DNA from: Candidatus Saccharimonadota bacterium
Lineage (GTDB): Bacteria; Patescibacteriota; Gracilibacteria; BD1-5; UBA6164
Assembly: GCA_004563595.2 (NCBI GenBank)
Contig: CP042461.1
Span: 1,200,001-1,232,000 of the forward strand
Direction of reading: 5' to 3'
DNA: 32,000 nucleotides
Shown here: piece after piece, positions 3,590 through 32,000 of the stretch
How positions within the stretch are numbered: the stretch's first letter is position 1
How the letters are laid out: each line of letters starts with the position of its first letter
Notes under the pieces: model-generated
What the model was told of the DNA's origin: nothing
The model's input: the letters and a program-made list of their open reading frames with translations, nothing else
Databases searched by the model: none
Translations under genes and position numbers: made by a program

Positions 3590-3789
3590 ACAAAAATAGT
3601 TATTTACTAATATTTTCCTCTCCTTTAATCTAATGATTTTTCAAAATTTTGCTATAATTTTGTATACAGTTGTGTTAAAAAAAAGCAGGATAATGTTAAA
3701 AACTATAAATAGACCTCTCTATTAAATAATCTTATAAAAATTAAGTCAAAAAAATTTGCTTTTTTGTGGAAAATTATCTGAATTATTAA

Positions 3790-3825
3790 GAAAAAGTTTT
3801 TAACATTTTTGTTAAAAACTTTTTC
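3790..3825 (-). terminator. AT-rich hairpin immediately after the rmuC stop
   Basis: Inverted repeat gaaaaagtttttaac (3790-3804) / gttaaaaactttttc (3811-3825) with a 6-nt loop. The stem is AT-rich, so it is thermodynamically weak. Confidence 0.45.
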
Positions 3826-3826
3826 T

Positions 3827-10333: not shown

Positions 10334-10341
10334 AAAAATAA

Positions 10342-10370
10342 AAAACGCTGATTCTTTTCAGCGTTTTTTC
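10342..10370. terminator. Intrinsic terminator after secA; possibly shared with the convergent small gene
   Basis: Stem aaaacgctga (10342-10351) / tcagcgtttt (10358-10367), loop ttcttt, then a T-run. Confidence 0.75.
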
Positions 10371-10434
10371 ATGTCAATTTTAAAGACAAATAGACTTCAA
10401 AATTGAGTATTCATAATCACTAATCTAGACTAGA

Positions 10435-10854
10435 CTAATCCTCTCTTTTTATAAAATTTATTTTATGTAAATTTAAAAGCATTTCAATTAATGTTAGCAT
10501 TCCGTAATCGCAACTCAAAACACTATAGAATAGTATATTATCTCGTTTTGGAGATTCAGAATAATTTACTTCTATGATTTTTATGTTTCCTGATGATAAT
10601 ATTTTTTCAATGCTAAAAGAAAACCTACCAAATTGGTTTTCTTTAATATCGAGACCTCTTCGTTCTACACCAGAACATTCATTCACAACTTTAAATTTGC
10701 TCGTGCCTATACCATTTTCAATTCCATTAACTATTTTCTCCAATAAGCTTTTAACGTCTTTTACTCCACCCTTTTTTTCTTCTCCTACATTAGATTCTTC
10801 CAAAATATACTTCTCCTTTTTACTTCTGAGATGATGTTCATAACCAAAGCACAT
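10435..10854 (-). CDS. Small hypothetical protein (139 aa), possibly a PUR-alpha-like (DUF3276-type) ssDNA/RNA-binding protein
   Basis: An intact ORF with no internal TGA. The segment SGVERRGLDIKENQFGRFSFSIEKI resembles the PUR repeat signature (..fDvKEN.rGrFl.I.E). This is recalled by eye only. Confidence 0.4.
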   Translation of the reverse strand: MCFGYEHHLRSKKEKYILEESNVGEEKKGGVKDVKSLLEKIVNGIENGIGTSKFKVVNECSGVERRGLDIKENQFGRFSFSIEKILSSGNIKIIEVNYSESPKRDNILFYSVLSCDYGMLTLIEMLLNLHKINFIKRED

Positions 10855-11023
10855 TCAAAATATGGAAAAACATATAAATTGCAAATTACTTTAAAATAAT
10901 ATGTCAAAAAGTAGGTTTTTTTTTAACAATGCTGGGGTTTTCCTATTCGTCAATCTATTTTTCTGTAAAATTATACTCAACTATGTTATTATAATAAAGA
11001 TATTTTAAATAACTTATAAGACT

Positions 11024-13995: not shown

Positions 13996-14031
13996 AAAAA
14001 CAGATACTCATTTACGAGTATCTGTTTTTTT
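13996..14031 (-). terminator. Intrinsic terminator of giant gene A (A-run / T-run flanked, bidirectional shape)
   Basis: Stem cagatactc (14001-14009) / gagtatctg (14016-14024), flanked by AAAAA and TTTTTTT. It ends 4 nt from the TAA of gene A (14036-14038). A near-identical copy sits at 27530-27567. Confidence 0.75.
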
Positions 14032-16765
14032 GTAATTAAGACTTCAGACTTTTCAAGAAGATTAAATAAGTTTTTTCAATATTACTTTTTAATATCTTCA
14101 TCTTGATCTTGTAGTTAATTCCCTTCTCCTTGTTATTCTTTGTTAAGATATAAGAGTCTATATTCTTCAATAACTTTGTCTTGAAAAATAGTACCTTTAT
14201 ACTTTTCTCCTTCTTGTATTTAATAATAAGAGTATCTAATCTTGCTCAAAGTTTGTTCACTATATCATTCTCTGATAAGTATACTCACACACTACTTGCT
14301 GTTCCAGTTTCTGCTGTTACAGTTGTATTGGCTTCTCTTTTCAATGCTTTTGCAAACAGTTTGAACGTTGCGAGTATCTTCACTTTGTGTTCTCTTGTAC
14401 TTTGTTTCGCTTGTCTGGCTAATATATAATTCTCTACGTCTTTGATAAAAGTATTTCTGTATTCTATTACTTTCTCATCATTATCTTTCTGCTTTTGTTC
14501 GATTACTTTGTCGACTCTCTTCTCTATCAATTGAAGGATTGTCATTTCTGAATGGTATTTCTTCAATGTTCATCATCATGTACTGTCTGTACTACTTCAT
14601 GTTCATGTTCATCCACTATTCAACTCTACTACATCTTCTTCTCAACAGAGACTTCATAGTTTCCCATATTTACATGATACTTCGTCTTGGACATACCATT
14701 TGTAAGTCGTTGTTGATCATGGGATCAGTTTACATGTGAGTTGTTCGTCTTTACAGGTTGGAATATAACTTCATCAACCTCAACCTCCTCATCAGCCTCC
14801 TCAACCTCAGCTTGAACTTGAACTTCATCAGCTACTTGTACTTGCTGTGGCTACTGAAAAGTTAATCGTATAATCACTTACATTTTCATTTGAATCAGTG
14901 TCCATACATCTTACATAGTAAGCATAACTTGTTCAGTCTGTAAGTCATGTTATGTTTGCTGTATGTGTGATTCCTCATGTTGCTGTTGTAAATATGTCTG
15001 TCATTGACGCATATGTTGTATTTACTACTGTTGAGTATTTACATGTTCATATTTCATCTGTATTTAATGTCAGATTCACAGCTGTCGTTCCTGATACTTG
15101 TTCTCAATTTGGTAATCCATTTGAGAGTATTGGAGCGGTTACATCAACGAGAGTGGCTACTGAAAAGTTCAGTGTGTAATCTGTTGTTGTTTCATTACTT
15201 GATCCATCTATACATCTTACATAGTATGTGTGTGATGTTCCATTGGTAAGTCATGTTATATTTGCTGTATGTGTAATTCCTCAGGTTCCTGTTGTAAATA
15301 TGTCTGTCATTGATGCATATGTTGTATTTACTACCGTTGAGTATTTACAAGTAGAGTTTTCATTGGTATCTAATGTCAGATTCACAGCTGTTGTTCCTGA
15401 AGCTTGTTCTCCGTTTGGAAGTCCATTACTAAGGATTGGTGCTGTTGCATCAACTACGTTTGCTACTGAAAAATTCAGTACGTAATCTGATGTGTTTTCA
15501 TTACTTGATCCATCTATACATCTTACATAATACGTATATGATGCTCAGTCTGTAAGTCATGTTACATTTGTTGTATGACTTGTATTTCATGTCGTTGTAA
15601 AGGTATCTGTCATTGATGTATATGTTGTATTTACTACTGTTGAGTATTTACATGTTGATGCTTCATTGGTATCTAATGTTAGATTCACATTTGTTGTTCC
15701 TGAGGCTTGTTCTCCGTTTGGAAGTCCATTACTAAGGATCGGTGCTGTTGCATCAACTACGTTCGCTACTGAAAAGTTCAGTGTGTAATCTGTGGTTGTT
15801 TCATTATTTGATCCATCTATACATCTTACATAATACGTATATGATGTTCCATCTGTCAGTCATGTTACATTTGTAGAATGACTTGTATTTCATGTCGTTG
15901 TAAAGGTATCTGTCATTGATGCATACGTTGTATTTACTACTGTTGAGTATTTACATGTTGATGCTTCATTCGTATCTAGTGTCAGATTCACATTTGTTGT
16001 TCCTGAGGCTTGTTCTCAGTTTGGAAGTCCATTACTTAAAAATGGTGCTCATGTGTCTGGAGTATTTGCTACTGAGAAGTTTAATGTATAATCTGTTGTG
16101 GTTGCATTAGAGTTTCCATCCATACATCTTACATAATACGTATGTGATGTTCCATCTGTAAGTCATGTTATGTTGGTTGTATGGTTTGTATTTCATGTCG
16201 TTGTAAATGTGTTTCACATTGCTCAATATGATGTGTTTGCATTTGGAGAGTATCTACAAGTTGCATTCTCATCGGTATCTAATGTCAGATTTACATTTGT
16301 TGTTCCTGAGGCTTGCTCTCCACTTGGAGTTCCGTTCGATAGAATCGGTGCTGTTGTGTCTGGAGTATTTGCTACTGAGAAATTCAGTGTGTAGTCTGTT
16401 GTATTTACATTTGATACTGAGTCGATACATCTTACGTAGTACGTATATGATATTCCATCTATCAGTCATGTTATGTTGGTACTATGTGTTGTATTTCAGG
16501 TTGTTGTAAATGTATTCCCTATTCATGCGTATGTAGTATTTGAATTTATTCAATATTTACAGGTTGCATTTTCGTCTGTGTCTAATGTGAGATTCACATT
16601 TGTTGTTCCTGAGGCTTGTTCTCCACTTGGTGTTCCATTCGAAAGTACTGGAGCTGTTGTGTCTGGAGTTACGGCTACAGAAAAGTTTAATGTGTAATCT
16701 GCTGTTGTTGCATTACTTGATCCATCTATACATCTTACATAATACGTATGTGATGTTGCATCTGT
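13996..16765 (-). repeat. Segmental duplication, copy 1 (terminator + tail + linker + first ~6.3 Ig repeats of gene A)
   Basis: It is colinear with 27532-30310. The offset is 13536 bp, becoming 13545 after a 9-bp indel near 14815/28350. In the 60-nt blocks I compared I saw 0-2 mismatches per block. Identity collapses after about 16765/30310. Confidence 0.9.
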
Positions 16766-19700
16766 AAGTCCTCATATACTCACACTATGTGTTTGTGATC
16801 ATGTTGTAGCAAAGTTGTTTATCATTGATCCATAAGCTACACTTGCAGTTGTAGAATATTTACAAAATGCATCCTCATCTGTAGATATACTGAGTGTTAT
16901 ATTTGTTGTTCCTGCAGCTTGTTCTCCACTTGGGGTTCCGTTCGAAAGAATTGGAGCTGCAGTATCCGGTGTATTTGCTACAGAGAAATTGAGTGTGTAA
17001 TCTGCTGTGTTTTCATTACTTGATCCATCCATACATCTTACATAGTAAGTATATGATGTTGCATCTGTCAGTCATGTTATGTTGGTTGTATGACTTGTAT
17101 TTCATGTTGTTGCAAAGGTATTTATCATACTTGAATATGCTGTATTTGCACTTGTTGCATATCTACAGGTTGCATTTTCAACAGTGTCTAATGTCAGATT
17201 CACATTCGTTGTTCCTGAAGCTTGTTCTCCACTTGGTGTTCCATTCGAAAGTACTGGAGCTGTTGTGTCTGGAGTGTTCGCTACAGAAAAATTTAATGTG
17301 TAATCTGTTGTTGTTTCATTACTTGATCAGTCGATACATCTTACATAGTACGTATATGAATTCCCATCTGTTAATCATGTTACATTTGTAGAATGTGATG
17401 TTATTCATGTAGTAGTAAATGTATTTGTCATACTTGTGAATACTGTATTTGCAACTGTAGAGTATTTACAAGTTGCATTCTCATCTGTATCGAGTGAGAG
17501 ATTTATATTTGTTGTTCCTCAGGCTTGTTCTCCACTTGGAGTTCCGTTTGATAATACTGGAACCGTTATGTCTGTCGAAGTAGTTGATCCTGTTGAAAAT
17601 TTATAAGCAGCAATAACAGGTGGATTCGTACCAGTTGCTTGATTATAATCAGCTTTATAAATAGATACAAATAACGTACCTGATACAGGGTCGAATGTTC
17701 CTCCACTGATTTGATTCACTTTACTTATTTGGAAAGGAGCATCGAAAATACCAACATCATAAGGAGTCACATCATATGCATTCATTATACCATTTTTGAC
17801 ATCTACAAGATCATTCACATCATACATCCAATAATAAGGGTATGTATCATACTCATCTATTATATAGTGACCTTGAATACCAGTATGAGGAGAGACTCCA
17901 TATGACATACCACTTTCATGACCTCCTGACATTCACAGTACTAAATATGTACTTGTTCATGGAACTATCATACCAAATGATCCTTCTGATGCATGAGTCC
18001 ATAAATCATTTGTACCACTACTATTGTATAAGTCTTCTAGAGGTACTAGGCCGTTTGGTAAAGTATACTTTAACAACTCAGTTGTCGGAATATCACTAAT
18101 AGAAGCTGAATTATCAAGTACATCGGTAGCATTAAATGCAAATGCAGCAGGACCAACACTCGTACTGTATATCAATGCCCTTGCTGTACTATTAGTAAAA
18201 CCTCCTATATGTGTTCCACCAAGAGCACTTTGCCATTCAACAGGAGTAGGTGAGATCCATCCAGCCGCATACGATTGTCCCTCCATAGTGAAATAACCAT
18301 CAACTTCTGATGTAGCAAGGTTATTTGAATCACGAAGAATAAGTGTATTTGTTGAACTGTATGGACTTTGATCATAAAAATCATAATGATTTACGAGTAA
18401 GTGCCCATTTTCGGCATAGATACCATTTATACGACTTTGTCCATTAACTTTATGAACTGCTTTATCAAGTACATTCGTAAAGTTTTGAAGAGGTGCCTCA
18501 GCAGTATTTAGTGCTGTTATATCAGTACTATTTACAAGTTCAGGAATTGAAAATTCAGCAATAGACTTACCATATTCGTGTCCAGCAACAAATAATGAAT
18601 TATTATCAGCATTGAATCATATAGCTCCATATGAAAAACTAGCATTCGCATAGTCACCAACTCAAAAATTACCTGACGGTAAACGAAAAGCTCCCTGATA
18701 ACTAATGTTATCTAAAGTAAGGAGTGGGAACGTAGATCATGAAGATGAAGTTATCGAATCTGTAACGTTGAAATTTATAACAAAATCTAGATTATTTTCA
18801 TTACTTGATCCATCGATACATCTTACATAATATGTATATGATACTCCATTTGTAAGTCCTCATATACTCACACTATGTGATTGTGATCATGTTGTTGCAA
18901 ATGTATTTATCATTGATCCATACGCTGTGTCTGCAGTTGTTGAATATTTACAAAATGCATTCTCATCGGTAGAAACGCTCAGTGTTGTATTTGTTGTTCC
19001 TGATGCTTGTTCTCCTGTAGGAGTTCCATTTGAAAGTATTGGAGCTGTAGTATCAACGACAACAATAGTTCCATCAACATATTCATATGCTCAGATATCA
19101 TATGTCCCTTGTCTCATGATCCCATTTAAATCTCTTGCAATTGGAGCAAAGCTTGGTAAAGCTTTATCAAAAACAAGTGAATTTTTTCATGAATCAACTG
19201 CGGGGCTTCATGATTCTATGTTTAAATTATCACTCGATGTATTTACAAATAATGGATCTAGATTATCTACATTATTTACATCAGCAATACAATCAGTACA
19301 ACTATCGTAGTTTCCTATACCGTAATATAAATTATTTGAGAGGTTCACTGTTGATGCTTCTCATATGCTCATATAATGATTCCCTGTAGGACCTGGGAAA
19401 TCCGATGTCATGTGTACTATATTATTATCAAACTTTGTATCAAATGTTGTTCCAGCAGATGTAGAAAATCAAATATATCCTGAATTATAAAATGTATTAT
19501 TATAAAAATATCCTGCTCAATTAATACTATTATGTTTCGATGTTGGTGCATATCAAGTATGATATGAATCAGCAGCATCATAGGTTCCACAATTCAAAAT
19601 TAAATTATTATACACATATGTTGGTTCTGGGATAACTTCCCCAGGGTCATAACTCAAATCGTATACATTTAATGCAGTTGCTCTTTGATAATCACAACTT

Positions 19701-22700
19701 ATTATGTTATTAAATATGAAATGTGACTTTACAACTTGTGTTGATAAACAACGATTTTGTTGATGATTCACTGTGATTTCTGGTCATCTCCCATAATCAT
19801 TATCATAAATATAATTCCATCATAGAGAATTCCCTTCAGTGTCAGCACATCAAGCTATATAAATACCATGATCAAAACGATTTGCACTTCTTGCCCCATG
19901 AATAGCATTCCCAAGAACAATATTCCCATTTCATAAATGAGTAGAATTATTTCAGACATTAATATGCCCAGCTCATTGACCAAAATACTCTTTGAGTCAT
20001 TGAACATCATTTCATATAAATCTATGGTAATCTCCTGCTAATCTTACAGAAGCATATGGTGTATCAAAAGCAAATCATGACATAACCATATAATTGTTTT
20101 CAAAAAATACTCCATTTTGAAAACTATTTGAATATGTTGGGTAAGTAAAATTTGCTAACTCTCATGGGTAACTAATAAGTGCTATAGGATTTCCTTGTGT
20201 CCCACTTATTTCACTCGTTCTAATCCATAAAATAGAATTTCATCCATTTGTTTTTTCTGAATATGTTCCTCCTCTAAAATAAAGAATATCTCCAGGTTGA
20301 ATATTTTCTAAATATCAACTTCATCCACTTGCTTGCTTATAACTAAATGGTGATGTAAATGATCCATCTCAAAAAGTATCTGTAGAGTTTACAAAATATA
20401 TATCCCCATCTCTAATAGTAAATGGGAGAGTATTTGATTCTTGTCCACCTATGTGAAGCTTGATATCAAGGTCTCATACTCACATTGAACTATTTAAGTA
20501 AAATGTAATTCTTTGTTGCTGTGGTGTTGGCCAAGCATCTCACCACTGTTCATAGTCTGAATCTGAAGTGAGGTCTACTCAACCTACACTTATATAGCTT
20601 GATCCTCTTGATGATCAAAAATTCTTTCACCATACGGTTACAGCTACTCATTTATCTGATTCAGATGTACTCCAACCACTCTTTGGTCAGCTTTCAAGAT
20701 CTGAATATAACAATACTGGAGCCGTTACGTCTGATGAACCAGTACTTGTTGGTTCTCCAATAACGTAGTCTGCTGGTAATCTCCCATCTTTTGGTGATTC
20801 ATCCCATAATGGATGTGATGAATCTATTGGAGTATATACTACAACATCATCGATTGCATACCATTGTTCTGCTTGATTACTAGGGTCTGAAAACCAATTA
20901 TATGTATTTCATCCTATTCAAAATGTATTAAATTTATCACTCAGCGAACTTCACGCACTTCTCCATGGAATATCACTCAAAGAGAATTCTTCTACTCCAT
21001 CAAGCCAGTATTGAGCAGTTCCATCTGCTACTCATAACGCAGAATTCATTCATACTTTTATTTCTAAATGATGCCATCCTCCATCATCAAAGGGGTCAGT
21101 AAATGTCGTTGAGGCATTTGTACCCCCCCATGGAGAATCGTAAGTATCCGGATATGCACCACAATAATATTCACTTTCTTGTGGATCACATCTTAAAGCA
21201 GCTACTGATCTATATCCATAGGTTGGAGAGCTCTTAATATCAAGTAAAAATATTGGAGCACTATCACCATTACTAAAGAAATTCCATGGACTATTTACTC
21301 CATCAGGTCCATCAAAATTATAAATTCTAGCCAGTTTAAAAAATGCATCTGCCCATTGCCAGTCTGGATCAACTTTAACCCAGAAACTCATATTAATTTC
21401 ATCATAACTTCCACTAAGACTCTTTATCAGCATAGTGTCATCACCCCAAGCTTGTTCTCATACAGCTTTACTTGACTCTTGGTATTTTATCCAAGATTTT
21501 CCACTCGCTCATCTAAATTGTTCGTTAGTAATTGATTGTCCTGGTTTCTTAGTTGGAAATCCATTATCTGGGTGCCAGTATTCAGTATTTCTTAGGTAAT
21601 TCCATCCTTCAGGAATAGTACTATCACATGCTGCAATACCATCACACTCTTCACTCCCATCAGCAACATACCAATCTGGATGATCATCAAAATTATCTTC
21701 AAAAAGGATATTTCCTCCACTCGATATAGGAGTACTTGCTACTGAAAAACTAATAGTATAGTCTGATGTATTTTCATTACTACTTCCATCTTCACACCTT
21801 ACATAGTAGGTATACGAATTTCCATCCGTTAATCATGTGATATTTACTGAATGTGATGTACTATTTGTTATTGTAAATACATTACTCATTCATGCATATG
21901 TTGTATTTACTGTTGATGAATACTTACACGTCGCTGTTTCATCTGTTGAAACACTCAAAGTTGTGTTTGTAGTTCCCAACGAAAGTTCTCCTGTTGGAGT
22001 TCCATTTGATAATATAGGTGCTGTAGTATCAGTTGATCCACTGTTAGAAGTACCAATAACATAACTTTCTGGCAATCTCCCATCTTTTGGTGATGCATCC
22101 CATAATGGATGTGATGAATCTATTGGTGTATATGTTACTACATCATCTACGGCATACCATTCTTCATCTTGATTGGAAATATCTGAATACCAGTTATTCC
22201 AATTTCCACCAATAGATATAAAGTTCCAACCTGTTCCTTCAGGAGATCCTACTTGTCTAAATGGCATATCTGTTACTGAATGTTCCAACAGACCATCTAA
22301 CCAAAATTGGAAAATTCCATCTTCTACTCCAGGAGTAGAGTTCATTTTCACTCTTAGCTCTATATGATGCCACTCACCATCTCCAAAGTTTTCTTCAAAA
22401 GTTGGGTGTGTAACTCCATCTACTGAAGTTGTAAACCCTGTACATGGTTCTCCATCTAAACATGTGAAATAATCTGTTGTTGTCCATTTATTATAATAAC
22501 TTGGACCACCACAACTAAGATAACCTGATTCTTGAGGATCACACCTCGGAGCATGACTCGATGTCCAACCATAAGTTGATGAGTTATTCAAATCAAAGAT
22601 ATAAAGAGGACCATTCACTCCAGCTGAACCGAGTTTAAAAGGATCAACTGATCCTGACGGACCATCAAAATGTCAGAGTCTAAATAATTTCAATTGTTTT

Positions 22701-25528
22701 GTTCCTGCTTGCCATTGCCATCCTGGTTGCATAAGAACCCACGCACTAAAGTACACCTCATCATACTCTTGATCTAAGCTTTTCATCAAAATAGAATCCG
22801 AATAGTAATTTGCCTCGTCTGATGTATGATTCGATTCACTTGTTTTAATCCACGACTTTCCTTCCGTCCCTCTTTTTACATCACCTGAAATTCTTTGACC
22901 TGCCTTCTTTGTTGAATAACCATTATCAGGGTGCCAATTATCATCGGAATTACGATAAAATGTCCAATCTTGAGGTACATCATCATCACATATACCTGTT
23001 ACTCCTGCACCTGTACAGACAGTTGAAGTAGGAGAAGGATACCAATCTGGGTGATCATCAAAATTATCTTCAAAAAGAATATTTCCTCCACTCGATATAG
23101 GAGTACTTGCTACTGAAAAACTAATAGTATAGTCTGATGTATTTTCATTACTACTTTCATCTTCACATCTTACATAGTAGGTATATGAATTCCCATTTGT
23201 TAACCCTGCTATATTTACTGAATGTGACGTACTACTTATTACAATAAAAGTGTCACTCATTCATGCATAGGTTGCATTCGCTGTTGGTGAATATTTACAC
23301 GTCGCTGTTTCATCTGTTGAAACACTCAAAGTTGTATTTGTAGTTCCTGATGAAAGTTCTCCTGTTGGACCCCCATTTGATAATACGGGTGCGGTAGTAT
23401 CTGATGGTAATGCCCCTGACCCAATAACATAATTTATTGGTAATCTCCCATCTTTTGGTGATTCATCCCATAACGGATGTGATGAATCAATTGGTGTATA
23501 TGCCACAAAATCATCTATTGCATACGAAAGTTCTTTGTTATTTGAAGGGTCTGAAAAGAAATTGTTCCAGTTTCAGCCAATAGATACAAAATTAAATCCT
23601 AGATCTGCCGGTGATCATGCATATCTCCATTGAGCATCACTACGAGAATATTGTTCTACTCCATCAATCCACATACTAAATTCTCCATCAGCAATACCTG
23701 GAGTTGAATTATTCTTTACATAAAGTTCTAGTTTATGCCATGAACCATCTCACATTGTTTCTTTAAATGTTGGGTTCCCCGCAGGAGTATAATCTATTTC
23801 ACCGGTACATGTCATTCCCTCTGGACATACAAATACTGGATCATATCATATTTCATTATCGCAATAATAATTATCTTCTTGATTATCACACCTCGGTTCA
23901 TGATGACCTCTCCATCCCCATTGAGTAGAATTTTTTAATTGAAGCAAGTACATAGGTCCTGTATTTCCAGCACCTCAAAGTTGAAATACATTCACTCCAG
24001 TACCACTATCAACATGTCCCATACGTGTTAGTTTCAATTCTCCATTTCAAGGGCTTACCCATTCCCATTCTGCAGGAAATTTAATCCAAAAACTTGTATG
24101 GATTTCATCATAATCTTCTTCCAAAACTTTCATCAAGATTGCATCTGAATAATAGTTTGATTCACCAATTGAGTGGTCTGATTCACTTGATTTAATCCAT
24201 GCTTTTCAACTTGCTCATCTAAACTCATCACTTGAAATCCTTTGCCCATAGTTATGACTTGGATATCAAGTTGATGGATTCCATTGATCTGTATGACGAT
24301 ACCATGTCCAACCTAATGGAATATCATCATCAGGACATTTTTCAGCCCAGAATCATCCACACTCTGATCATGTTGGTGTCCATTCATTATGACCATCAAA
24401 ATCATCTTCAAAAAGAATATTTCCTCCGGTAGGTTCTACTAAATTTGCTACCGAAAAATTAATAAGGTAGTCTGATATATTTTCATTTGAATCTCCATCT
24501 ATACATCTGACATAGTATCTATATAAATTTCCATCTGTAAGTCATCACACACTTACAGTATGTGATTGAGCTCATGTAGTCGAAAAACTATTTGTCATTA
24601 ATCCATATGCTATGTTTGCAGTTGTTGAATATTTACAAAATGCATTTTCATCTGTTGAAACACTCAAAATTACATTTGTTGTTCCTGATGATTGCTCACC
24701 ACTTGGAGCTCCATTTGAAAGAATTGGAGCTATTGCAGGTGGAGTATATCATGAAGTAGCTATATCATCGTTATAATCAGTAAGTATCTCTGCCGCACTC
24801 AATGCTTCATTATATATTTTTAATTCATCAATAGCTCCATCAAAAGTACGTGATCCATCTGGATTCGCTCATATACTAACTGGCACTGCAGAACTTTGTG
24901 CCACTGGTCAATTTGCTCATGTAGATGATCCAGCTTCAACACCATTTACATAGATTCTCATCGTTGTTTGATCATATGTAGCTGTTATTTGTTGCCATAC
25001 TCAAGCTTGAAGTTCTACATTATTTCATACTAGCGTTACTGTCTCTTGATCAGATTTTAAACGAAAACGAGGATAATATTTTCCACCTTCATCCATAGTA
25101 CTTATCATCCAGTAATGATCAGCTCCAGAGGAGCTTGTTGTTTTTGAAATGATTCTTGCATCTGGAATACCAAAAGTATCTGGTTTTATCCATGCTGAAA
25201 TAGTAAGTCCATTTCATGTTATATCCATATTTCAAAGTGAAATATTTGTATTATTAAAATCAATAGCTGAGTTTATAAGACCTGGAGACCAAGCCCCATT
25301 TGTAATAGTTCATTGGCTCCCATAAACATCTCAAAGTACTGTTCAGGTATTTTCATCAAATGAATAATAATGTATTTGGCTTGCAGGGGCTGCATATATT
25401 AATTGGAAATTATATATATATAACAATAAAGTCATTGTTAGTAACACCAAAAATGATGATATTTTTTTTCTGTAAACAGATATTTGCATAATAAATAATC
25501 CTTTAAAAAATATTAGGTATATTAACAT
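14036..25528 (-). CDS. Giant secreted modular surface protein A (3830 aa): putative adhesin / polysaccharide-binding or -degrading protein
   Basis: All minus-strand ORF-track fragments share one frame (14285-14566, 16799-17032, 17519-17932, 17957-18286, 19553-19771, 21050-21433, 21890-22618, 22673-23260, 23261-23506, 25343-25528). I scanned every codon between them and found no TAA/TAG, only TGA.
- Start: the N-terminus is MLIYLIFFKGLFIMQISVYRKKISSFLVLLTMTLLLYIYNFQLIYAAPASQ. It looks like a signal peptide, and the true start may be the second ATG at 25489.
- Stop: TAA at 14036-14038. Confidence 0.85.
14851..17584 (-). repeat. Tandem array of 9 coding repeats (303-306 bp each, ~101-aa Ig-like units) in gene A
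   Basis: The FSVA-encoding marker (ctactga/ctacaga on the plus strand) recurs at 14851, 15157, 15463, 15766, 16069, 16372, 16675, 16978 and 17281. The unit consensus is DTTAPxLSNGxPSGEQxxGTTNxxLxxxTDExAxC(K/R)YSxxxxxxYxxMxxxFxxTGxxxHxxxxTGLTDGxxYxYYVRCxDxxGNxNxxDYxxxFSVA. Four more dispersed copies lie at about 18765-19060, 21745-22030, 23105-23400 and 24450-24745. Confidence 0.9.
17585..18740 (-). other. Domain of gene A: ~385-aa domain of unknown function, shared with giant gene B
   Basis: LTLDNISYQGAFRLPSGNFGVGDYANASFSYGAIGFNADNNSLFVAGHEYGKSIAEFSIP ... LGMSGGHESGMSYG ... YYWMYDVNDLVDVKNG ... IAAYKF. The C-terminal ~190 aa align to gene B residues encoded at 31432-32000 (GMSGMHESGGGYK...YIWLWDVNDFLDVKNG...ILAYKI). 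Confidence 0.5.
19078..20404 (-). other. Domain of gene A: right-handed parallel beta-helix (pectate-lyase fold)
   Basis: The entry motif is IYFVNSTDTFGDGSFTSPFSYKQA...IQPGDILYFRGGTYSE. It is followed by repeated N-rich rungs (NIVLGNAIHG, NNTFYNSGY, FDNNIVH, NLSNNLYYG). The characteristic ending is LDPLFVNTSSDNLNIESGSPAVDSG...ARDLNGIMRQGTYDIGAYEY. Confidence 0.7.
20405..20700 (-). other. Domain of gene A: IPT/TIG-like Ig domain
   Basis: GVAVTVWGKNFGSSRGSSYISVGGVDLTSDSDYEQWGD...ITFYLNSSMGVGDLDIKLHIGGQESNTLPFTIRDG follows the typical G..vti.G.NFG...g.v.vGG pattern. Confidence 0.55.
20822..21721 (-). other. Domain of gene A: beta-jelly-roll module 3
   Basis: Starts GGNILFEDNFDDHPDWYVADGSEECDG. 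Continues ...GGWHHLEIKVGMNSALGVADGTAQYWLDGVEE...FGIGGNTYNWFSD...WYAIDDVVVYTPID. Confidence 0.55.
22118..23092 (-). other. Domain of gene A: beta-jelly-roll module 2
   Basis: Starts GGNILFEDNFDDHPDWYPSP. Continues ...GEWHHIELRVKMNSTPGVEDGIFQFWLDGLLE...FISIGGNWNNWYSD...WYAVDDVVTYTPID. Confidence 0.55.
23485..24427 (-). other. Domain of gene A: beta-jelly-roll module 1 (ConA-like lectin/glucanase/polysaccharide-lyase-like)
   Basis: Starts GGNILFEDDFDGHNEW. Continues ...DGSWHKLELYVKNNSTPGIADGEFSMWIDGVEQ...FVSIGGNWNNFFSD...YAIDDFVAYTPID. It is homologous to modules 2 and 3. Confidence 0.55.
24785..25370 (-). other. Domain of gene A: LamG / concanavalin-A-like (Laminin_G_3-type)
   Basis: ISAWIKPDTFG...RIISK...VELQAGVWQQITATYDQTTMRIYVNGVEAG...VSIGANPDGSRTFDGAIDELKIYNEALSAAEIL is the classic Laminin_G_3 ending. 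Confidence 0.75.
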
Positions 25529-25532
25529 ATAA

Positions 25533-25562
25533 ATTTTATCATATTTTATAGTTTAGAGTCAA
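25533..25562 (-). promoter_or_regulatory. Candidate sigma70-type promoter for giant gene A
   Basis: The minus strand reads TTGACT (25562-25557), an 18-nt spacer, then TAAAAT (25538-25533). The -10 element ends 4 nt before ATG 25528, so either the mRNA is nearly leaderless or the real start is ATG 25489. Confidence 0.3.
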
Positions 25563-27567: not shown

Positions 27568-30310
27568 GTAATTAAGACTTCAGACTTTTCAAGAAGATTA
27601 AATAAGTTTTTTCAATATTACTTTTTAATATCTTCATCTTGATCTTGTAGTTAATTCCCTTCTCCTTGTTATTCTTTGTTAAGATATAAGAGTCTATATT
27701 TTTCAATAACTTTGTCTTGAAGAATAGTACCTTTATACTTTTCTCCTTCTTGTATTTAATAATAAGAGTATCTAATCTTGCTCAAAGTTTGTTCACTATA
27801 TCATTCTCTGATAAGTATACTCACACATTACTTGCTGTTCCAGTTTCTACTGTTACAGTTGTATTGGCTTCTCTTTTCAATGCTTTTGCAAAGAGTTTGA
27901 ACGTTGCCAGTATCTTCACTTTGTGTTCTCTTGTACTTTGTTTCGCTTGTCTGGCTAATATATAATTCTCTACGTCTTTGATAAAAGTATTTCTGTATTC
28001 TATTACTTTGTCATCATTATCTTTCTTCTTTTGTTCGATTACTTTGTCCACTCTCTTCTCTATCAATTGAAGGATTGTCATTTCTGAATGGTATTTCTTC
28101 AATGTTCATCATCATGTACTGTCTGTACTACTTCATGTTCATGTTCATCCACTATTCAACTCTACTACATCTTCTTCTCAACAGAGACTTCATAGTTTCC
28201 CATATTTACATGATACTTCGTCTTGTACATACCATTTGTACGTTGTTGTTGATCATGGAGTTAATTTACATGTGAGTTGTTCGTCTTTACAGGTTGGAAT
28301 ATAACTTCATCAACCTCAACCTCCTCATCAGCCTCCTCAACCTCAGCTTGAACTTCAGCCTGATGAACTTCATCAGCTATTTGTACTTGCTGTGGCTACT
28401 GAAAAGTTAATTGTATAGTCTGTTGTTGTTTCATTTGAATCAGTGTCCATACATCTTACATAGTAAGTGTGTGATGTTCCATCTGTCAGTCATGTTATGT
28501 TTGCTGTATGTGTGATTCCTCAGGTTGCTGTTGTAAATATGTCTGTCATTGATCCATATGTTGTATTTACTACTGTTGAGTATTTACATGTTCATATTTC
28601 ATCTGTATTTAATGTCAGATTCACAGCTGTTGTTCCTGATACTTGTTCTCAGTTTGGTAATCCATTTGAGAGTATTGGAGCGGTTACATCAACGAGAGTG
28701 GCTACTGAAAAGTTCAGTGTGTAATCTGTTGTTGTTTCATTACTTGATCCATCCATACATCTTACATAGTATGCATAACTTGTTCCGTTGGTAAGTCATG
28801 TAATATTTGCACTATGTGTGATTCCTCATGTTCCTGTTGTAAGTATGTCTGTCATTGACGCATATGTTGTATTTACTACCGTTGAGTATTTACATGTTCA
28901 TATTTCATCTGTATTTAGTGTCAGATTCACAGCTGTCGTTCCGGATACTTGTTCTCAGTTTGGTAATCCATTTGAGAGTATTGGAGCGGTTACATCAACG
29001 AGAGTGGCTACTGAAAAGTTCAGTACGTAATCTGTTGTTGTTTCGTTTGAACTTGTATCCATACATTTCACATAGTATGTATAACTTGTTCAGTCTATCA
29101 GTCATGTTACATTCGTAGAATGTCCTGTATTTCATGTCGTAGTAAATGTATCTGTCATTGATGCATACGTTGTATTTACTACGGTTGAGTATTTACATGT
29201 TCATGCTTCATTCGTATCTAATGTCAGATTCACGTTTGTTGTTCCTGAAGCTTGTTCTCCGTTTGGAAGTCCATTACTAAGGATCGGTGCTGTTGCATCA
29301 ACTACGTTCGCTACTGAAAAGTTCAGTGTGTAATCTGTGGTTGTTTCATTATTTGATCCATCTATACATCTTACATAATACGTATATGATGTTCCATCTG
29401 TCAGTCATGTTACATTTGTAGAATGACTTGTATTTCATGTCGTTGTAAAGGTATCTGTCATTGATGCATACGTTGTATTTACTACTGTTGAGTATTTACA
29501 TGTTGATGCTTCATTCGTATCTAGTGTCAGATTCACATTTGTTGTTCCTGAGGCTTGTTCTCAGTTTGGAAGTCCATTACTTAAAAATGGTGCTCATGTA
29601 TCTGGAGTATTGGCTACTGAGAAGTTTAATGTATAATCTGTTGTGGTTGCATTAGAGTTTCCATCCATACATCTTATATAATACGTATGTGATGTTCCAT
29701 CTGTAAGTCATGTTATGTTGGTTGTATGGTTTGTATTTCATGTCGTTGTAAATGTGTTTCACATTGCTCAATATGATGTATTTGCATTTGGAGAGTATCT
29801 ACATGTTGCATTTTCATCGGTATCGAGTATCAGATTCACGTTACTTGTTCCTGAGGCTTGTTCTCCACTTGGGGTTCCGTTCGAAAGAATCGGTGCTGTT
29901 GTGTCTGGAGTATTTGCTACTGAGAAATTCAGTGTGTAGTCTGTTGTATTTACATTTGATACTGAGTCGATACATCTTACGTAATACGTATATGATATTC
30001 CATCTATCAGTCATGTTATGTTGGTACTATGTGTTGTATTTCAGGTTGTTGTAAATGTATTCCCTATTCATGCGTATGTAGTATTTGAATTTATTCAATA
30101 TTTACAGGTTGCATTTTCGTCTGTGTCTAATGTGAGATTCACATTTGTTGTTCCTGAGGCTTGTTCTCCACTTGGTGTTCCGTTCGAAAGTACTGGAGCT
30201 GTTGTGTCTGGAGTTACGGCTACAGAAAAGTTTAATGTATAATCTGTTGTTGTTGCATTACTTGATCCATCTATACATCTTACATAATATGTATATGATG
30301 TTGCATCTGC
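27532..30310 (-). repeat. Segmental duplication, copy 2 (partner of 13996-16765)
   Basis: See copy 1. The plus-strand shadow ORFs 30018-30242 and 16473-16697 translate to identical 74-aa strings. Shadow ORFs 29461-29655 and 15916-16110 differ at 2 of 64 positions. Confidence 0.9.
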
Positions 30311-32000
30311 TAATCATGTTATGTTGGTTGTATGACTTGTATTTCAGGTTGTTGTAAAGGTATCTGTCATTGATGCATACGTTGTATTTACTGCTGTTGA
30401 GTATTTACAGGTTGCATTTTCATCTGTATCTAATGTCAGGTTCACATTCGTTGTTCCTGAGGCTTGTTCTCCACTTGGAGTTCAGTTCGAAAGAATTGGT
30501 GCCGTTGTGTCTGGAGTGTTCGCTACAGAAAAATTTAATGTGTAGTCTGTTGTGTTTTCATTACTTGATCAGTCGATACATCTTACATAATACGTATATG
30601 ATGTTGCATCTGTGAGTCATGTTATGTTGGTTGTATGACTTGTATTTCATGTCGTTGCAAAGGTATTTATCATACTTGCATATGCTGTATTTGCACTTGT
30701 TGAATATCTACAAGTAGAGTTCTCATCAGTATCTAATGTCAGGTTCACATTCGTTGTTCCTGATGCTTGTTCTCCACTTGGAGTTCCGTTCGAAAGAATT
30801 GGAGCTGTGGTATCTGGAGTGTTCGCTACTGAGAAACTTAATGTGTAATTTGTTGTGTTTACGTTTGATACGGTATCGATACATCTTACATAATATGTAT
30901 ATGATGTTGCATCTGTGAGTCATGTAATATTTGTAGTGTGTGTTGTATTCCCTGTTGTAGCAAAAGTGTTTATCATACTTGCATATGCTGTATTTGCACT
31001 TGTTGAATATCTACAAGTAGAGTTCTCATCAGTATCTAATGTCAGATTTACATTTGTTGTTCCTGATGTTTGTTCTCCACTAGGAGTTCCATTTGAAAGA
31101 ATCGGAGCTGTTGTATCTGGAGTGTTCGCTACTGAAAAATTGAGTGTGTAATCTATTGTTGTTTCATTCAAATACCCATCTATACATCTTACATAATATG
31201 TATATGAATTCCCTTCTGTTAATCATGTTACATTTGTAGAATGTGATGTATTTCACGTCGTAGTAAATGTATTTGTCATACTTGTGAATACTGTATTTGC
31301 AACGGTAGAATATTTACATGTTGCATTCTCATCTGTATCTAATGTGAGATTTACATTCGTTGTTCCTCAGGCTTGTTCTCCAGTTGGAGTTCCGTTTGAA
31401 AGTATAGCTGCTGTAGTATCTACTACCGCATTTATCTTGTAGGCAAGGATTACTGGTCAAGCAGCATGATTCTCTCCATCTGCTCTGTTTAAATTCAAAT
31501 ACAATGTGTTTGATACATCATCATATGATCAACCAGCAATTAAGTTTTTTCTTGTTCCATTGAGTCTATATTCAAATGGAGTATTAAATTTTCCATATTG
31601 GTATGGTTTTACTTCGTATGATTGTTTTAATCCATTTTTTACATCTAAGAAATCATTTACATCCCATAACCATATATAGTTATACATATCAAGTGGATCA
31701 TAGGCACATGGTCATCAACATGCTTCTGTTGCACCTGATTGAGTAATCTTGTATCATCCTCCACTTTCATGCATTCATGACATTCAGATCGTTGCATAGG
31801 TTCTGGTTCATGGAATTATAAATCCATATTCTGCTCAAGAATCTTCCGTCCATAAATCATTATCTCCATTTGCATTATATAGATCCCAGTCTCAATATTC
31901 TGCCCACCCTGAAGGTGTCTTTGCTAATACATTACTTAAACCAAAATCTAATAATTTAGTAGTCGGTATAGTTACATTTGTATCGGTTGCATTCAAAAGA
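27572..32000 (-). CDS. Giant surface protein B, C-terminal 1476 codons; the 5' part lies beyond the window
   Basis: It uses the same frame class as gene A. I scanned every codon from 27572 to 32000 and found no TAA/TAG. From the window edge the order is: the unknown-domain homolog (31432-32000), 10 Ig-like repeats, the Gly/Ser linker, the 4-Cys segment and the basic tail. The stop is TAA at 27572-27574. Confidence 0.85.
28396..31432 (-). repeat. Tandem array of 10 coding repeats (303-306 bp) in gene B
   Basis: The FSVA marker recurs at 28396, 28702, 29008, 29311, 29614, 29917, 30220, 30523, 30826 and 31129. Confidence 0.9.

What the first reader, a model, noticed from the sequence alone, without database searches (positions are those of the whole stretch)
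14036..25528. A single uninterrupted 3830-codon gene with an unusual modular order
Hand scanning shows no TAA/TAG in 11,493 nt. The domain order is:
1. signal peptide
2. LamG
3. Ig-like repeat + jelly-roll + conserved linker, three times
4. IPT
5. parallel beta-helix
6. Ig-like repeat
7. unknown ~385-aa domain
8. nine Ig-like repeats
9. 13-Gly linker
10. 4-Cys segment
11. ~200-aa basic tail

The protein combines lectin-like and lyase-like folds (LamG, three ConA-like jelly-rolls, a pectate-lyase-type beta-helix) with a long Ig stalk. This suggests it reaches out and binds or cuts a polysaccharide surface. Such a gene would take a substantial fraction of a small CPR genome.
Basis: partly seen in the sequence, partly recalled or inferred. 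Interest (0 to 1): 0.7.

Follow-up and report, generated by a model that had tools for sequence, protein, structure and literature searches.

The report
Giant glycan-targeting surface protein, Gracilibacteria
This is a real 11.5-kb gene of a tiny bacterium that reads the stop codon TGA as glycine, and it encodes a 413-kDa surface fibre carrying five sugar-chain-binding or sugar-chain-cutting modules on a long stalk, probably used to grip or digest the coat of a host cell; giant surface proteins are already known in these bacteria, but this combination of modules is new.

Summary
The open frame at 14036-25528 lies on the minus strand and exists only if TGA is a sense codon (122 in-frame TGAs). 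TGA=Gly (code 25) is shown by TGA at invariant glycines of SecA, RuvA and a prepilin. This places the window in Gracilibacteria/Absconditabacteria.

- signal peptide, then LamG;
- three copies of an FN3-like repeat plus a jelly-roll whose fold matches PL14/PL20/PL36 lyases;
- one conserved IPT + right-handed beta-helix unit (Pel9A-like/DUF5123);
- an FN3-like repeat, then the "unknown" 385-aa domain, which is a beta-propeller of a widespread unannotated family;
- nine FN3-like repeats, Gly13, a 4-Cys segment and a basic two-repeat helical tail.

Each head module exists elsewhere as a stand-alone secreted protein. Jelly-roll relatives sit in exopolysaccharide gene clusters and phage tail or structural modules. 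The stalk-and-tail cassette is nearly orphan (6 relatives in 1.84 billion proteins) and recurs behind different heads, including a paralog in this window. Cutting versus binding is unproven.

Verdict: a new variant of a known kind (giant host-interaction surface proteins of ultra-small episymbionts). Interest is moderate.

The parts
14036..25528 (-). Whole CDS: 3830 aa plus stop from the first ATG. The likely true start is the ATG at 25489, giving 3817 aa. 413 kDa, pI 4.4, 122 TGA(Gly) codons.
25388..25528 (-). N-terminal signal peptide region (aa 1-47). It is the only TM-like hydrophobic segment in the protein. Motif: MQISVYRKK + hydrophobic core + IYA|AP.
   Evidence: read from the sequence; no signal-peptide predictor was available
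24743..25378 (-). LamG / ConA-like domain (aa ~51-262).
   Evidence: Pfam Laminin_G_3, 1.4e-31, 110 bits
24443..24742 (-). FN3-like repeat R1 (aa 263-362).
23414..24442 (-). Jelly-roll module JR1 (aa 363-705), including the conserved C-terminal extension TPIDSSHPLWDESPKDGRLPxNYVIG.
   Evidence: PF21294 at E 2e-3; family alignment A3; nearest subclade P0125/P0126
23105..23413 (-). FN3-like repeat R2 (aa 706-808).
22034..23104 (-). Jelly-roll module JR2 (aa 809-1165). Only 1 of its 38 Gly codons is TGA.
   Evidence: PF21294, 29 bits against a cutoff of 27. Model of the 55%-identical homolog matches PL20, PL36 and PL14 lyases. TGA depletion p = 6e-10.
21728..22033 (-). FN3-like repeat R3 (aa 1166-1267).
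20729..21727 (-). Jelly-roll module JR3 (aa 1268-1600), the most divergent copy.
19064..20728 (-). IPT/TIG (aa 1601-1705) plus right-handed parallel beta-helix (aa 1706-2155). Together they form one conserved unit, ending in a choice-of-anchor-Q-like DIGAYEY motif.
   Evidence: TIG 20.7 bits; choice_anch_Q at 8e-7; 53% identity over aa 1599-2152 to the 616-aa Sulfidibacter protein; family profile hits 9rx2, PL9 5olq and 1ru4
18755..19063 (-). FN3-like repeat R4 (aa 2156-2258).
17579..18754 (-).
   Evidence: At least 185 homologs at 38-61% identity with no Pfam match to this domain. AF2 model of the 61%-identical homolog has pLDDT 90. Only generic propeller matches were found. TGA depleted, p = 4e-6.
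14849..17578 (-). Stalk of nine FN3-like repeats R5-R13 (aa 2651-3560, period 101 aa, one conserved Cys pair per repeat).
   Evidence: mosaic 75-100% nucleotide identity to the paralog
14771..14848 (-). Ser/Gly linker with the Gly13 run (aa 3561-3586). Seven of the 13 Gly codons are TGA.
   Evidence: the relative P0199, called with code 4, reads GWGGWGGWGWWWGGW at the same place
14570..14770 (-). 4-Cys segment (C3592, C3599, C3619, C3628) plus a G/S/T linker (aa 3587-3653).
   Evidence: conserved in P0199
14039..14569 (-). Basic helical tail (aa 3654-3830, pI 9.9), made of two repeats of about 78 aa. Putative envelope anchor.
13996..14029 (.). Perfect 14-bp hairpin flanked by A and T runs, 7 nt after the stop codon. 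It looks like a bidirectional terminator between the convergent genes.
25533..25562 (-). Promoter-like site TTGACT-18-TG-TAAAAT upstream of the gene.
   Evidence: consensus match only
27572..32000 (-). Paralogous giant gene, 5' end outside the window. It has a divergent propeller (43% identity), 10 FN3-like repeats and the same Gly-run / 4-Cys / tail cassette (98% identity).

Best explanation
The gene encodes a Sec-exported, cell-surface giant protein of a code-25 CPR bacterium (Gracilibacteria/Absconditabacteria).

Proposed arrangement (inferred):
- The C-terminal basic two-repeat helical tail, preceded by a Gly13 hinge and a small 4-Cys knot, holds the protein on the acidic cell envelope non-covalently.
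- The nine FN3-like repeats form a rigid stalk tens of nanometres long.
- The N-terminal two thirds present six glycan-directed heads: LamG, three different PL14/PL20-like jelly-rolls, an IPT + pectate-lyase-type beta-helix, and a novel beta-propeller. Single FN3 spacers separate most of these heads.

Proposed function (inferred): the heads recognise, and at least some of them depolymerise, capsule, EPS or wall polysaccharide of the host or prey cell. That would make the fibre a cell-anchored counterpart of an array of phage tailspikes.

Shown here: the ORF, the genetic code, the fold assignments, the modular homologies and the shared cassette.

Inferred: the topology (which end is anchored), the substrate and catalysis.

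The heads appear to have been recruited from stand-alone secreted proteins of standard-code bacteria or phages. They were grafted onto a lineage-specific stalk/anchor cassette that paralogs share while their heads diverge.
For: 1. The ORF and the code are established.

2. Fold evidence.
- LamG: 110 bits.
- Jelly-rolls: PF21294 hits in 9 of 17 family members; the model (pTM 0.82) has PL20 2zzj, PL36 6kzk and PL14 5gmt/3gne among its top matches.
- Beta-helix: homologs carry Pel9A-like_beta_helix, DUF5123, Disaggr_assoc and Beta_helix domains; the family profile hits 9rx2 (6e-16), PL9 5olq (8.5e-10) and 1ru4 (1.6e-7).
- Propeller: model pLDDT 90.

3. Context of stand-alone homologs.
- Jelly-roll relatives lie inside EPS clusters in two unrelated lineages.
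- One lies in the tail-fibre slot of a Mu-like prophage, and one in a viral structural module.
- Propeller relatives lie next to Pel9A-like beta-helix genes and glycosyltransferases in 2 of 4 contexts, one of them an EPS cluster.

4. All three jelly-rolls and the propeller keep every family-invariant residue, including charged ones.

5. The cassette (FN3 repeats, poly-Gly, tail) recurs behind unrelated heads: P0199, P0204 (a Gracilibacteria DUF285 protein) and the in-window paralog.

6. The tail has pI 9.9 against 4.2 for the body, and there is no C-terminal TM segment or known sorting motif.

7. TGA-Gly codons are depleted in JR2 (3%) and the propeller (13%), against 52% in neighbouring genes.

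8. Literature. Giant surface proteins of 1392-4163 aa in the predatory absconditabacterium Vampirococcus are proposed host-attachment factors (PMC8080830). Pectin-lyase-like and lectin-like Ig-fold surface proteins are proposed for the DPANN ectosymbiont Nanobdella.
Against: - No catalytic residues were verified for any module.
- PL14 Pfam matches cover only the last third of the model. Two of the three copies fall below the gathering score.
- PL9 matches cover only N-terminal helix turns.
- X122, a top structural match, showed no activity or glycan binding in experiments.
- The propeller has no informative structural relative: TM 0.41 or lower.
- Both sampled beta-helix contexts and half of the propeller contexts were uninformative.
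- EPS-cluster context could equally mean action on the cell's own polymer.
- The anchoring role of the tail is inferred only from charge, position and recurrence.
- No expression data exist, and the host is unknown.
Confidence: 0.55

Rival explanations
1. It is a pure adhesin. All heads are non-catalytic lectin-like binding modules, the lyase folds having been co-opted for binding. The fibre only tethers the episymbiont to host glycans, working together with type IV pili.
For: - LamG is typically a binding module.
- X122, with the same fold class, lacks activity.
- The literature frames CPR giant proteins as attachment factors.
- A pilin-like gene lies between the two paralogs.
- PL14 and PL9 matches are partial.
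Against: - The jelly-roll and beta-helix families occur as stand-alone secreted proteins in EPS clusters and phage tail modules. Proteins in those positions are usually depolymerases (established knowledge of phage tailspikes and EPS-locus lyases; contexts).
- The modules show strong cross-phylum conservation (40-60% identity) and invariant charged residues, which is more typical of enzymes.
Confidence: 0.25
2. It acts on the bacterium's own envelope. It would be either a structural, S-layer-like fibre or a processing enzyme array for self-made EPS or wall glycans, rather than a host-directed tool.
For: - Stand-alone homologs sit within EPS biosynthesis clusters, where such enzymes trim the producer's own polymer.
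- Vampirococcus giant proteins are credited with its fibrous surface.
Against: - The window holds no EPS biosynthesis genes. The neighbours are RNR, RmuC, RuvA, SecA, a PKD protein and a pilin.
- Three different jelly-roll subfamilies, a beta-helix and a propeller on one chain, together with a paralog carrying a divergent head, fit variable external targets better than a single self polymer.
Confidence: 0.12
3. It is an assembly artefact or pseudogene. The ORF would be a chimera of the two paralogs, or would have a mis-assembled repeat number.
For: - The paralog 2 kb away shares 3.5 kb at 91.5% nucleotide identity with the 3' end of the giant gene.
- Within that stretch, identity is mosaic, with 99-100% tracts and a 350-bp exact run.
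- No reads were available to check.
Against: - The frame is intact over 11.5 kb with consistent codon use.
- Internal repeats are only 46-91% identical at the DNA level, and the longest exact internal repeat is 78 bp.
- Both genes end in complete cassettes with proper stops, and the giant gene is followed by a terminator-like hairpin.
- The unique 7.9 kb of heads has no repeat problem.
- At worst, the stalk repeat number or some stalk segments could be swapped between the paralogs.
Confidence: 0.05

Closest known systems
Giant membrane/surface proteins of Vampirococcus lugosii (Absconditabacteria; PMC8080830)
   Same: Both are code-25 CPR lineages. Sizes are similar (1392-4163 aa there, 3830 aa here). 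Both are predicted surface proteins with adhesion-type repeats, and both genomes carry type IV pilus genes. The proposed role is host recognition and attachment.
   Different: The domains reported there are WD40, TPR, PKD, saposin, DUF11, integrin and fibronectin. Lyase-like jelly-rolls, a beta-helix, this propeller or this C-terminal cassette are not described.
Pectin-lyase-like and lectin-like Ig-fold surface proteins of the DPANN ectosymbiont Nanobdella aerobiophila (bioRxiv 10.1101/2023.10.27.564410)
   Same: Both combine Ig/FN3-type folds with a parallel beta-helix or a ConA-like lectin on the surface of an ultra-small ectosymbiont, with a proposed role in degrading or recognising the glycosylated host wall. 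The FN3-like repeat type found here is itself shared by CPR and DPANN genomes.
   Different: The Nanobdella proteins are 908-1320 aa and carry one head each. Here six heads are fused on one 3830-aa chain with a distinct anchor cassette, and the organism is a bacterium rather than an archaeon.
Beta-jelly-roll polysaccharide lyases PL14 (vAL-1 3gne, AkAly30 5gmt), PL20 (TrGL 2zzj), PL36 (Aly36B 6kzk)
   Same: The fold is shared, as the top Foldseek matches with TMt 0.5-0.6. There is Pfam PL14 similarity over the C-terminal third.
   Different: Sequence identity is 9-13%. The modules here are about 100 aa longer, with Cys-rich insertions. A family profile finds no PDB sequence. Catalytic residues were not verified. 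The family is rare: 14 homologs in 5.8 billion proteins.
CAZy X122 domain (TtX122A/B, 8q28/8q2a; PMC10916295)
   Same: It has the same jelly-roll fold class and ranks equally high in the fold search. It is also a module of large extracellular multidomain proteins.
   Different: X122 showed no enzymatic activity or plant-glycan binding and occurs with cytochrome domains. No sequence-level relationship was shown.
PL9 pectate/rhamnogalacturonan lyases (Pel9A 1ru4, 5olq) and DUF5123/disaggregatase-related beta-helix proteins
   Same: Both are right-handed parallel beta-helices. The family profile hits PL9 structures. Homologs carry PF22842, PF17161 and PF08480.
   Different: The matches cover only the N-terminal turns, and the PL9 Ca-site and catalytic Lys were not aligned. 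The closest relatives (about 50% identity) are uncharacterised IPT + beta-helix proteins, many with T9SS tails.
Phage tailspike/tail-fibre depolymerases
   Same: The module repertoire matches: beta-helix, propeller and jelly-roll lyase. Jelly-roll relatives are physically located in a prophage tail-fibre slot and a viral structural module. The propeller model's best viral matches are tail fibres and tailspikes.
   Different: The window is cellular chromosome (SecA, RuvA, RmuC, RNR). The protein is a single secreted chain with a stalk and anchor, not a trimeric virion protein. The structural similarities are weak (TM 0.41 or lower).

Membership tests
Genetic code 25 lineage (Gracilibacteria/Absconditabacteria) | UGA decoded as Gly: in-frame TGA at universally conserved Gly positions | tested here: met
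   TGA falls at both Gly of the SecA Walker A motif MKTGEGKT, at AGRGTD and GRAGRQGDPG, at the RuvA HhH motifs GVG and GIG, and at the prepilin G|FTLVE. TGA codons are mixed with GGN codons in the Gly13 run.
Genetic code 25 lineage (Gracilibacteria/Absconditabacteria) | Phylogenetic placement by marker genes | not tested
   No named close relative was retrieved. The only support is that tail-bearing relative P0204 comes from a Ca. Gracilibacteria MAG.
Laminin_G_3 / ConA-like (PF13385) | Score above the Pfam gathering cutoff over the full domain | tested here: met
   110.2 bits against a cutoff of 27.6, covering profile positions 4-150 of 151.
Polysaccharide lyase family 14 (PF21294 / CAZy PL14) | Full-length Pfam match above the gathering score | tested here: inconclusive
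   JR2 scores 29.0 bits against a cutoff of 27, but only over profile positions 136-205 of 215. JR1 (18.2) and JR3 (21.5) are below the cutoff.
Polysaccharide lyase family 14 (PF21294 / CAZy PL14) | Beta-jelly-roll fold superposable on PL14 structures | tested here: met
   The model of the 55%-identical homolog matches 5gmt and 3gne at E 3e-7 to 4e-7 with TMt about 0.5. PL20 and PL36 rank higher.
Polysaccharide lyase family 14 (PF21294 / CAZy PL14) | Catalytic cleft residues (Lys/Tyr/Arg/Ser set of vAL-1; from my own knowledge of the family) and beta-elimination activity | not testable with these tools
   No coordinates or residue-level superposition were available. Family-invariant R, K, K, E and D residues exist in all three copies, but they were not mapped to a cleft.
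PL9 pectate lyase-type right-handed beta-helix | Parallel beta-helix homology | tested here: met
   Family profile A6 hits 9rx2 (6e-16), 5olq (8.5e-10) and 1ru4 (1.6e-7). Homologs carry PF22842 and PF13229.
PL9 pectate lyase-type right-handed beta-helix | Ca2+-binding Asp cluster and catalytic Lys aligned | tested here: inconclusive
   The alignments to 1ru4 and 5olq stop at chain residues ~167-175, before the catalytic region.
IPT/TIG (PF01833) | Pfam score at or above the gathering cutoff | tested here: inconclusive
   20.7 bits against a cutoff of 20.9. More distant homologs of the unit carry PF01833, and UniRef names P0147 'IPT/TIG domain-containing'.
FN3-like repeats (Pur_ac_phosph_N / fn3 / DUF7800) | Significant match to FN3-type Pfam families | tested here: met
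   Whole protein: PF16656 86.4 bits (cutoff 30) and DUF7800 48 bits (cutoff 27). A single repeat scores 26.4 bits.
Known C-terminal surface anchors (LPXTG sortase signal, SLH, T9SS CTD, PEP-CTERM, TM anchor) | Recognisable anchor motif or domain at the C-terminus | tested here: not met
   There are no credible Pfam or NCBIfam hits for aa 3555-3830. There is no hydrophobic segment outside the N-terminus.
Giant host-interaction surface proteins of CPR episymbionts (Vampirococcus type) | More than 1000 aa, export signal, adhesion-type repeats, CPR genome | tested here: met
   Surface localisation and a role in host interaction are not testable here.

The most novel reading that the evidence does not exclude
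The protein is a cell-anchored 'multi-depolymerase'. A predatory or episymbiotic Gracilibacterium would have captured stand-alone capsule/EPS-degrading enzymes from standard-code bacteria or phages. These comprise three different PL14/20-like lyases, a PL9-like beta-helix and a previously unrecognised propeller glycanase family. It would have grafted them onto a lineage-specific stalk and electrostatic anchor.

Paralogs would swap heads while gene conversion keeps the stalks alike, so that the set of heads defines host range, as it does for phage tailspikes. The low TGA-Gly content of JR2 and the propeller would be a molecular record of those captures across a genetic-code boundary.
Probability: 0.3. 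Interest if true: 0.75.

Novelty: new variant of a known kind. Interest (0 to 1): 0.5.

Why it matters
How code-25 CPR bacteria recognise and breach their hosts is unknown, and only two predatory Absconditabacteria have been cultivated. This gene offers concrete, separable modules that can be expressed (with TGA recoded to GGA) and tested on host capsule or EPS.

The analysis also brings out four further points:
1. A conserved beta-propeller family of at least 185 members across many phyla, often next to beta-helix and glycosyltransferase genes, has no annotation or solved relative.
2. A rare PL14-like family occurs in EPS clusters and phage tails.
3. A nearly orphan stalk/anchor cassette carries exchangeable heads in Gracilibacteria.
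4. Codon evidence (TGA depletion) suggests that modules crossed a genetic-code boundary.

There is a practical consequence too. Public protein sets mis-translate such genes with table 11 or table 4, so these proteins are fragmented or garbled and largely invisible to homology searches.

Tried and rejected
- **Table-11 tools** (ORF listing, translate) give no gene here. All proteins had to be translated in Python with table 25.
I modelled the closest homologs instead (61% and 55% identity).
- **Single-sequence and profile searches of PDB sequences** for the jelly-roll and propeller found nothing meaningful.
- **Tail searches** in GTDB species representatives and JGI metagenomes found nothing.
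- **No close relative or ortholog** of the whole architecture was found. All module hits were stand-alone proteins of 751 aa or fewer.
- **Contexts of beta-helix homologs** and of two propeller homologs were uninformative. One look-up failed.
- **Neighbouring Pel9A-like genes** are not detectably similar to the giant's beta-helix, so that link is at family level only.
- **The locus of the tail-bearing relative P0199** is not syntenic.
- **Phage origin of the window** was rejected, because SecA, RuvA, RmuC and RNR are present.
- **Code 4 (TGA=Trp)** was rejected, because TGA sits at invariant Gly positions.
- **No RNA genes** were found in the window.
Full report
**1. Observation**

Under the standard bacterial code the window looks almost non-coding. 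The longest stop-to-stop frame is 269 codons and only 7% of the sequence is coding. Reading TGA as sense raises the coding density to 95% and gives ten long frames. One of them is a minus-strand frame at 14036..25552. The frame contains 122 TGA codons.

TGA is Gly, not Trp. It occupies universally conserved glycines: both Gly of the SecA Walker A motif (MKTGEGKT), AGRGTD and GRAGRQGDPG in SecA, the RuvA helix-hairpin-helix GVG and GIG motifs, and the Gly at the prepilin cleavage site. Seven of the 13 codons in the Gly13 run are TGA. A public relative that was translated with code 4 reads GWGGWGGWGWWWGGW at the same position.

Code 25 is known only from Gracilibacteria and Absconditabacteria (established knowledge; restated in PMC11452946). 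The neighbouring genes are cellular: NrdD fragment, RNR, RmuC, RuvA, SecA.

The likely true start is the second ATG (25489), giving 3817 aa. It has an AAGGA motif 9 nt upstream and produces a canonical signal peptide. A promoter-like TTGACT-18-TG-TAAAAT site ending at 25533 would put the transcript start at about the first ATG. A perfect 14-bp hairpin with A/T flanks follows the stop codon.

**2. Anatomy**

| Residues | Module | Main evidence |
|---|---|---|
| 1-47 | Signal peptide; the only hydrophobic segment | |
| 51-262 | LamG | PF13385, 110 bits |
| 263-1600 | Three copies of FN3-like repeat + ~340-aa jelly-roll | |
| 1601-2155 | IPT/TIG + right-handed beta-helix | |
| 2156-2258 | FN3-like repeat | |
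| 2259-2650 | The 'unknown' domain, a beta-propeller | |
| 2651-3560 | Nine FN3-like repeats, period 101 aa | |
| 3561-3586 | Ser/Gly linker with Gly13 | |
| 3587-3630 | 4-Cys segment | |
| 3654-3830 | Basic tail | |

The repeats match FN3-type families: Pur_ac_phosph_N, DUF7800 and Y_Y_Y. Each has a conserved Cys pair.

The tail has pI 9.9 against 4.2 for the body. It is an internal duplication of two units of about 78 aa (29% identity, E 7e-12).

'Ig-like' is better described as FN3-like.

**3. The jelly-rolls**

Each copy hits Pfam Polysacc_lyase_14, but only over the last third of the model. Only JR2 exceeds the gathering score.

The family is rare, with 14 homologs among 5.8 billion proteins. 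Almost all are stand-alone secreted proteins of 335-424 aa.

An AlphaFold model of the 55%-identical P0121 (pLDDT 77, pTM 0.82) has beta-jelly-roll lyases as its best PDB matches: PL20 glucuronan lyase 2zzj, PL36 Aly36B, and PL14 AkAly30 and vAL-1. The X122 domain ranks alongside them. X122 showed no activity or binding in experiments (PMC10916295), so fold alone does not prove catalysis.

The 'conserved linker' TPIDSSHPLWDxSPKDGRLPxxYVIG also ends two stand-alone relatives, so it belongs to the module.

The three copies are not recent duplicates. JR1 groups with P0125/P0126 (55-56% identity), JR2 groups with P0121-P0124 (50-56%), and JR3 is divergent. The copies are 48-52% identical to each other (crude NJ tree). 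All three retain every family-invariant residue.

**4. IPT + beta-helix**

The segment has 64 homologs. The best are about 50% identical over the full length. They are 520-750 aa, and many have T9SS sorting tails. They carry Pel9A-like_beta_helix, DUF5123, Disaggr_assoc, TIG and, in the distant ones, Beta_helix and NosD domains.

A 616-aa Sulfidibacter protein aligns to aa 1599-2152 at 53% identity, so IPT and helix form one conserved unit.

A family profile hits a 'parallel beta-helix repeat protein' (9rx2, 6e-16), PL9 rhamnogalacturonan lyase (5olq, 8.5e-10), Pel9A (1ru4, 1.6e-7) and a GH120 xylosidase. The PL9 matches cover only N-terminal turns. The C-terminal end matches the choice-of-anchor-Q motif.

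**5. The 'unknown' domain**

It has at least 185 homologs at 38-61% identity. Most are stand-alone proteins of about 420 aa named 'hypothetical protein', from Planctomycetes, Sumerlaeota, Deltaproteobacteria, Eisenbacteria and Caldilineaceae. Some have T9SS tails. None has a Pfam match to the domain itself.

The model of the 61%-identical P0001 is confident (pLDDT 90, pTM 0.88) and all-beta. Foldseek returns only generic propellers from PDB (WD40, sialidase, GH43, BtuG; TMq at most 0.37). From the viral library it returns phage tail fibres and tailspikes, including the K1E endosialidase (TM at most 0.41).

It is a beta-propeller of an uncharacterised family.

**6. Context of the stand-alone relatives**

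| Module | Locus | Context |
|---|---|---|
| Jelly-roll | Tara marine contig | EPS/capsule cluster (Wzy, flippase, GT2/GT4, acyltransferases, PGA_cap, CapK); a second paralog and a Disaggr_repeat/CBM96/PL14 protein nearby |
| Jelly-roll | Marinobacter salsuginis | A similar EPS cluster |
| Jelly-roll | Mu-like prophage | Tail-fibre slot, right after Baseplate_J/Gp48 |
| Jelly-roll | Viral contig L055 | Structural module, between major head and tail proteins |
| Propeller | L004/L005 | EPS cluster, adjacent to a Pel9A-like beta-helix gene |
| Propeller | L049 | Adjacent to two Pel9A-like beta-helix genes plus a GT2 |
| Propeller | L047, L050 | Uninformative |
| Beta-helix | L001, L048 | Uninformative |

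The adjacent beta-helix genes share only the Pfam family with the giant's helix.

The association with bacterial surface polysaccharides is therefore good for the jelly-roll, partial for the propeller and absent for the helix.

**7. Stalk and anchor cassette**

The tail has no relatives in GTDB representatives or JGI metagenomes. It has only six relatives among 1.84 billion representative proteins.
- P0199 (1473 aa, TGA-recoded contig) has beta-helix-like heads, then an FN3-like repeat, poly-Gly, the same 4-Cys segment and the tail.
- P0204 (Ca. Gracilibacteria MAG) has a DUF285 head, two FN3-like repeats, poly-Gly and the tail.

The in-window paralog (27572..>32000) has a propeller only 43% identical to the giant's. 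Its stalk, however, is about 91% identical and its Cys+tail cassette 98% identical. At the DNA level the shared 3.5 kb is a mosaic of 75-80% and 99-100% tracts, which suggests gene conversion.

No known anchor motif or C-terminal TM segment is present. I infer that the basic tail holds the protein on the envelope and that the heads are distal. This is inference.

The FN3-like repeat type (motif YTYYVRC-D) occurs in 38 GTDB loci. Most are CPR (Saccharibacteria, Parcubacteria, Kazan, Moranbacteria and others) or DPANN archaea. It often sits beside LamG or IPT-beta-helix modules.

**8. Codon footprint**

| Region | TGA share of Gly codons |
|---|---|
| Seven neighbouring genes | 52% |
| LamG, helix, stalk, IPT, linker | 40-69% |
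| JR1 | 28% |
| JR3 | 22% |
| Propeller | 13% (p = 4e-6) |
| JR2 | 3%, 1 of 38 (p = 6e-10) |

Heterogeneity between modules is significant (chi-square p = 3e-8). This fits later acquisition of those modules from standard-code donors, in which in-frame TGA is impossible. It is an inference, and other codon-choice pressures are not excluded.

**9. Assembly**

Internal repeats are 46-91% identical at the DNA level, and the longest exact internal repeat is 78 bp. The only real risk is the set of identical tracts shared with the paralog, up to 350 bp. These could affect the stalk segments or repeat number, but not the 7.9 kb of unique heads.

**10. Comparison and verdict**

Giant surface proteins of 1392-4163 aa are already described in the predatory absconditabacterium Vampirococcus, as host-attachment factors (PMC8080830). 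Ig-fold proteins with pectin-lyase-like or lectin-like heads are proposed to attack or recognise the host wall in the DPANN ectosymbiont Nanobdella. Giant genes of predatory Omnitrophota are implicated in cell-wall degradation.

The present gene is a new variant of this kind. It fuses six glycan-directed heads, three of them from distinct subfamilies of a rare lyase-like family and one from an unannotated propeller family. They sit on a nearly orphan stalk/anchor cassette with exchangeable heads.

No ortholog of the whole architecture was found. Code-25 genes are poorly represented in public protein sets, so this absence is weak evidence.

Whether the protein cuts or only binds polysaccharide remains open. 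Interest is moderate (0.5).

Noticed in passing
window 1-32000: The entire window uses genetic code 25. Table-11 gene calling yields no gene longer than 269 codons. Public collections hold relatives mis-translated with code 4 (P0199: the poly-Gly run reads as a G/W mix) or cut into fragments (P0200 and P0201, 88-107 aa).
   Followed up: yes
window 27572-32000 (-): A second giant paralog runs off the window. It has a divergent propeller head (43% identity), 10 FN3-like repeats and an almost identical Gly-run/4-Cys/tail cassette. Nucleotide identity to the first gene is mosaic (75-100%), which suggests gene conversion of the stalk while the heads diverge.
   Followed up: partly
window 25708-27516 (+): A 602-aa type IV pilin-like protein (N_methyl motif, KGFTLVELIVV) with two C-terminal beta-rich repeat domains of about 120 aa lies between the two giant genes. 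It is transcribed divergently from the first. It may be a tip adhesin or minor pilin linked to the same host-contact function.
   Followed up: partly
window 11024-13912 (+): A 962-aa protein with a weak N-terminal T2SSE-like region, several TM helices and two C-terminal PKD domains lies convergent with the giant gene. It is another envelope or pilus-associated candidate.
   Followed up: partly
window 5657-7561 (+): A 634-aa protein between RuvA and SecA has no Pfam or NCBIfam match at all.
   Followed up: partly
window 10334-11008: A 675-bp gap lies after SecA. It begins with a terminator-like hairpin (AAAAACGCTGATTCTTTTCAGCGTTTTTT). A 139-aa minus-strand ORF (10435-10854, no TGA codons) fits inside it. 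No Rfam or tRNA hit was found.
   Followed up: no
window 1-3589 (-): Two ribonucleotide reductase genes lie side by side: the N-terminal part of an anaerobic NrdD-type enzyme (ATP-cone + NRDD), cut by the window edge, and a complete 870-aa ATP-cone + barrel RNR.
   Followed up: partly
window 22034-23104 and 17579-18754 (-): TGA-Gly codons are almost absent from JR2 (1 of 38) and rare in the propeller (5 of 39), against 52% in neighbouring genes. This may be a footprint of module capture from standard-code donors.
   Followed up: yes
L004, L005, L049 (homolog loci); proteins P0001-P0120: The propeller belongs to a widespread family of at least 185 members across many phyla, 38-61% identical to the window's copy, unannotated and without a solved relative. 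Members are repeatedly encoded next to Pel9A-like beta-helix and glycosyltransferase genes. The family would merit characterisation in its own right.
   Followed up: partly
L008-L045: The FN3-like repeat with the YTYYVRC-D motif is found mostly in CPR bacteria and DPANN archaea, the two groups of ultra-small episymbionts. This hints at a surface-protein building block shared across domains, or exchanged between them.
   Followed up: partly
L051 8001-9143; L055 7872-9008: Relatives of the jelly-roll module are encoded in a Mu-like prophage tail-fibre region and in a viral structural module. This suggests they serve as virion-associated glycan-targeting proteins.
   Followed up: partly
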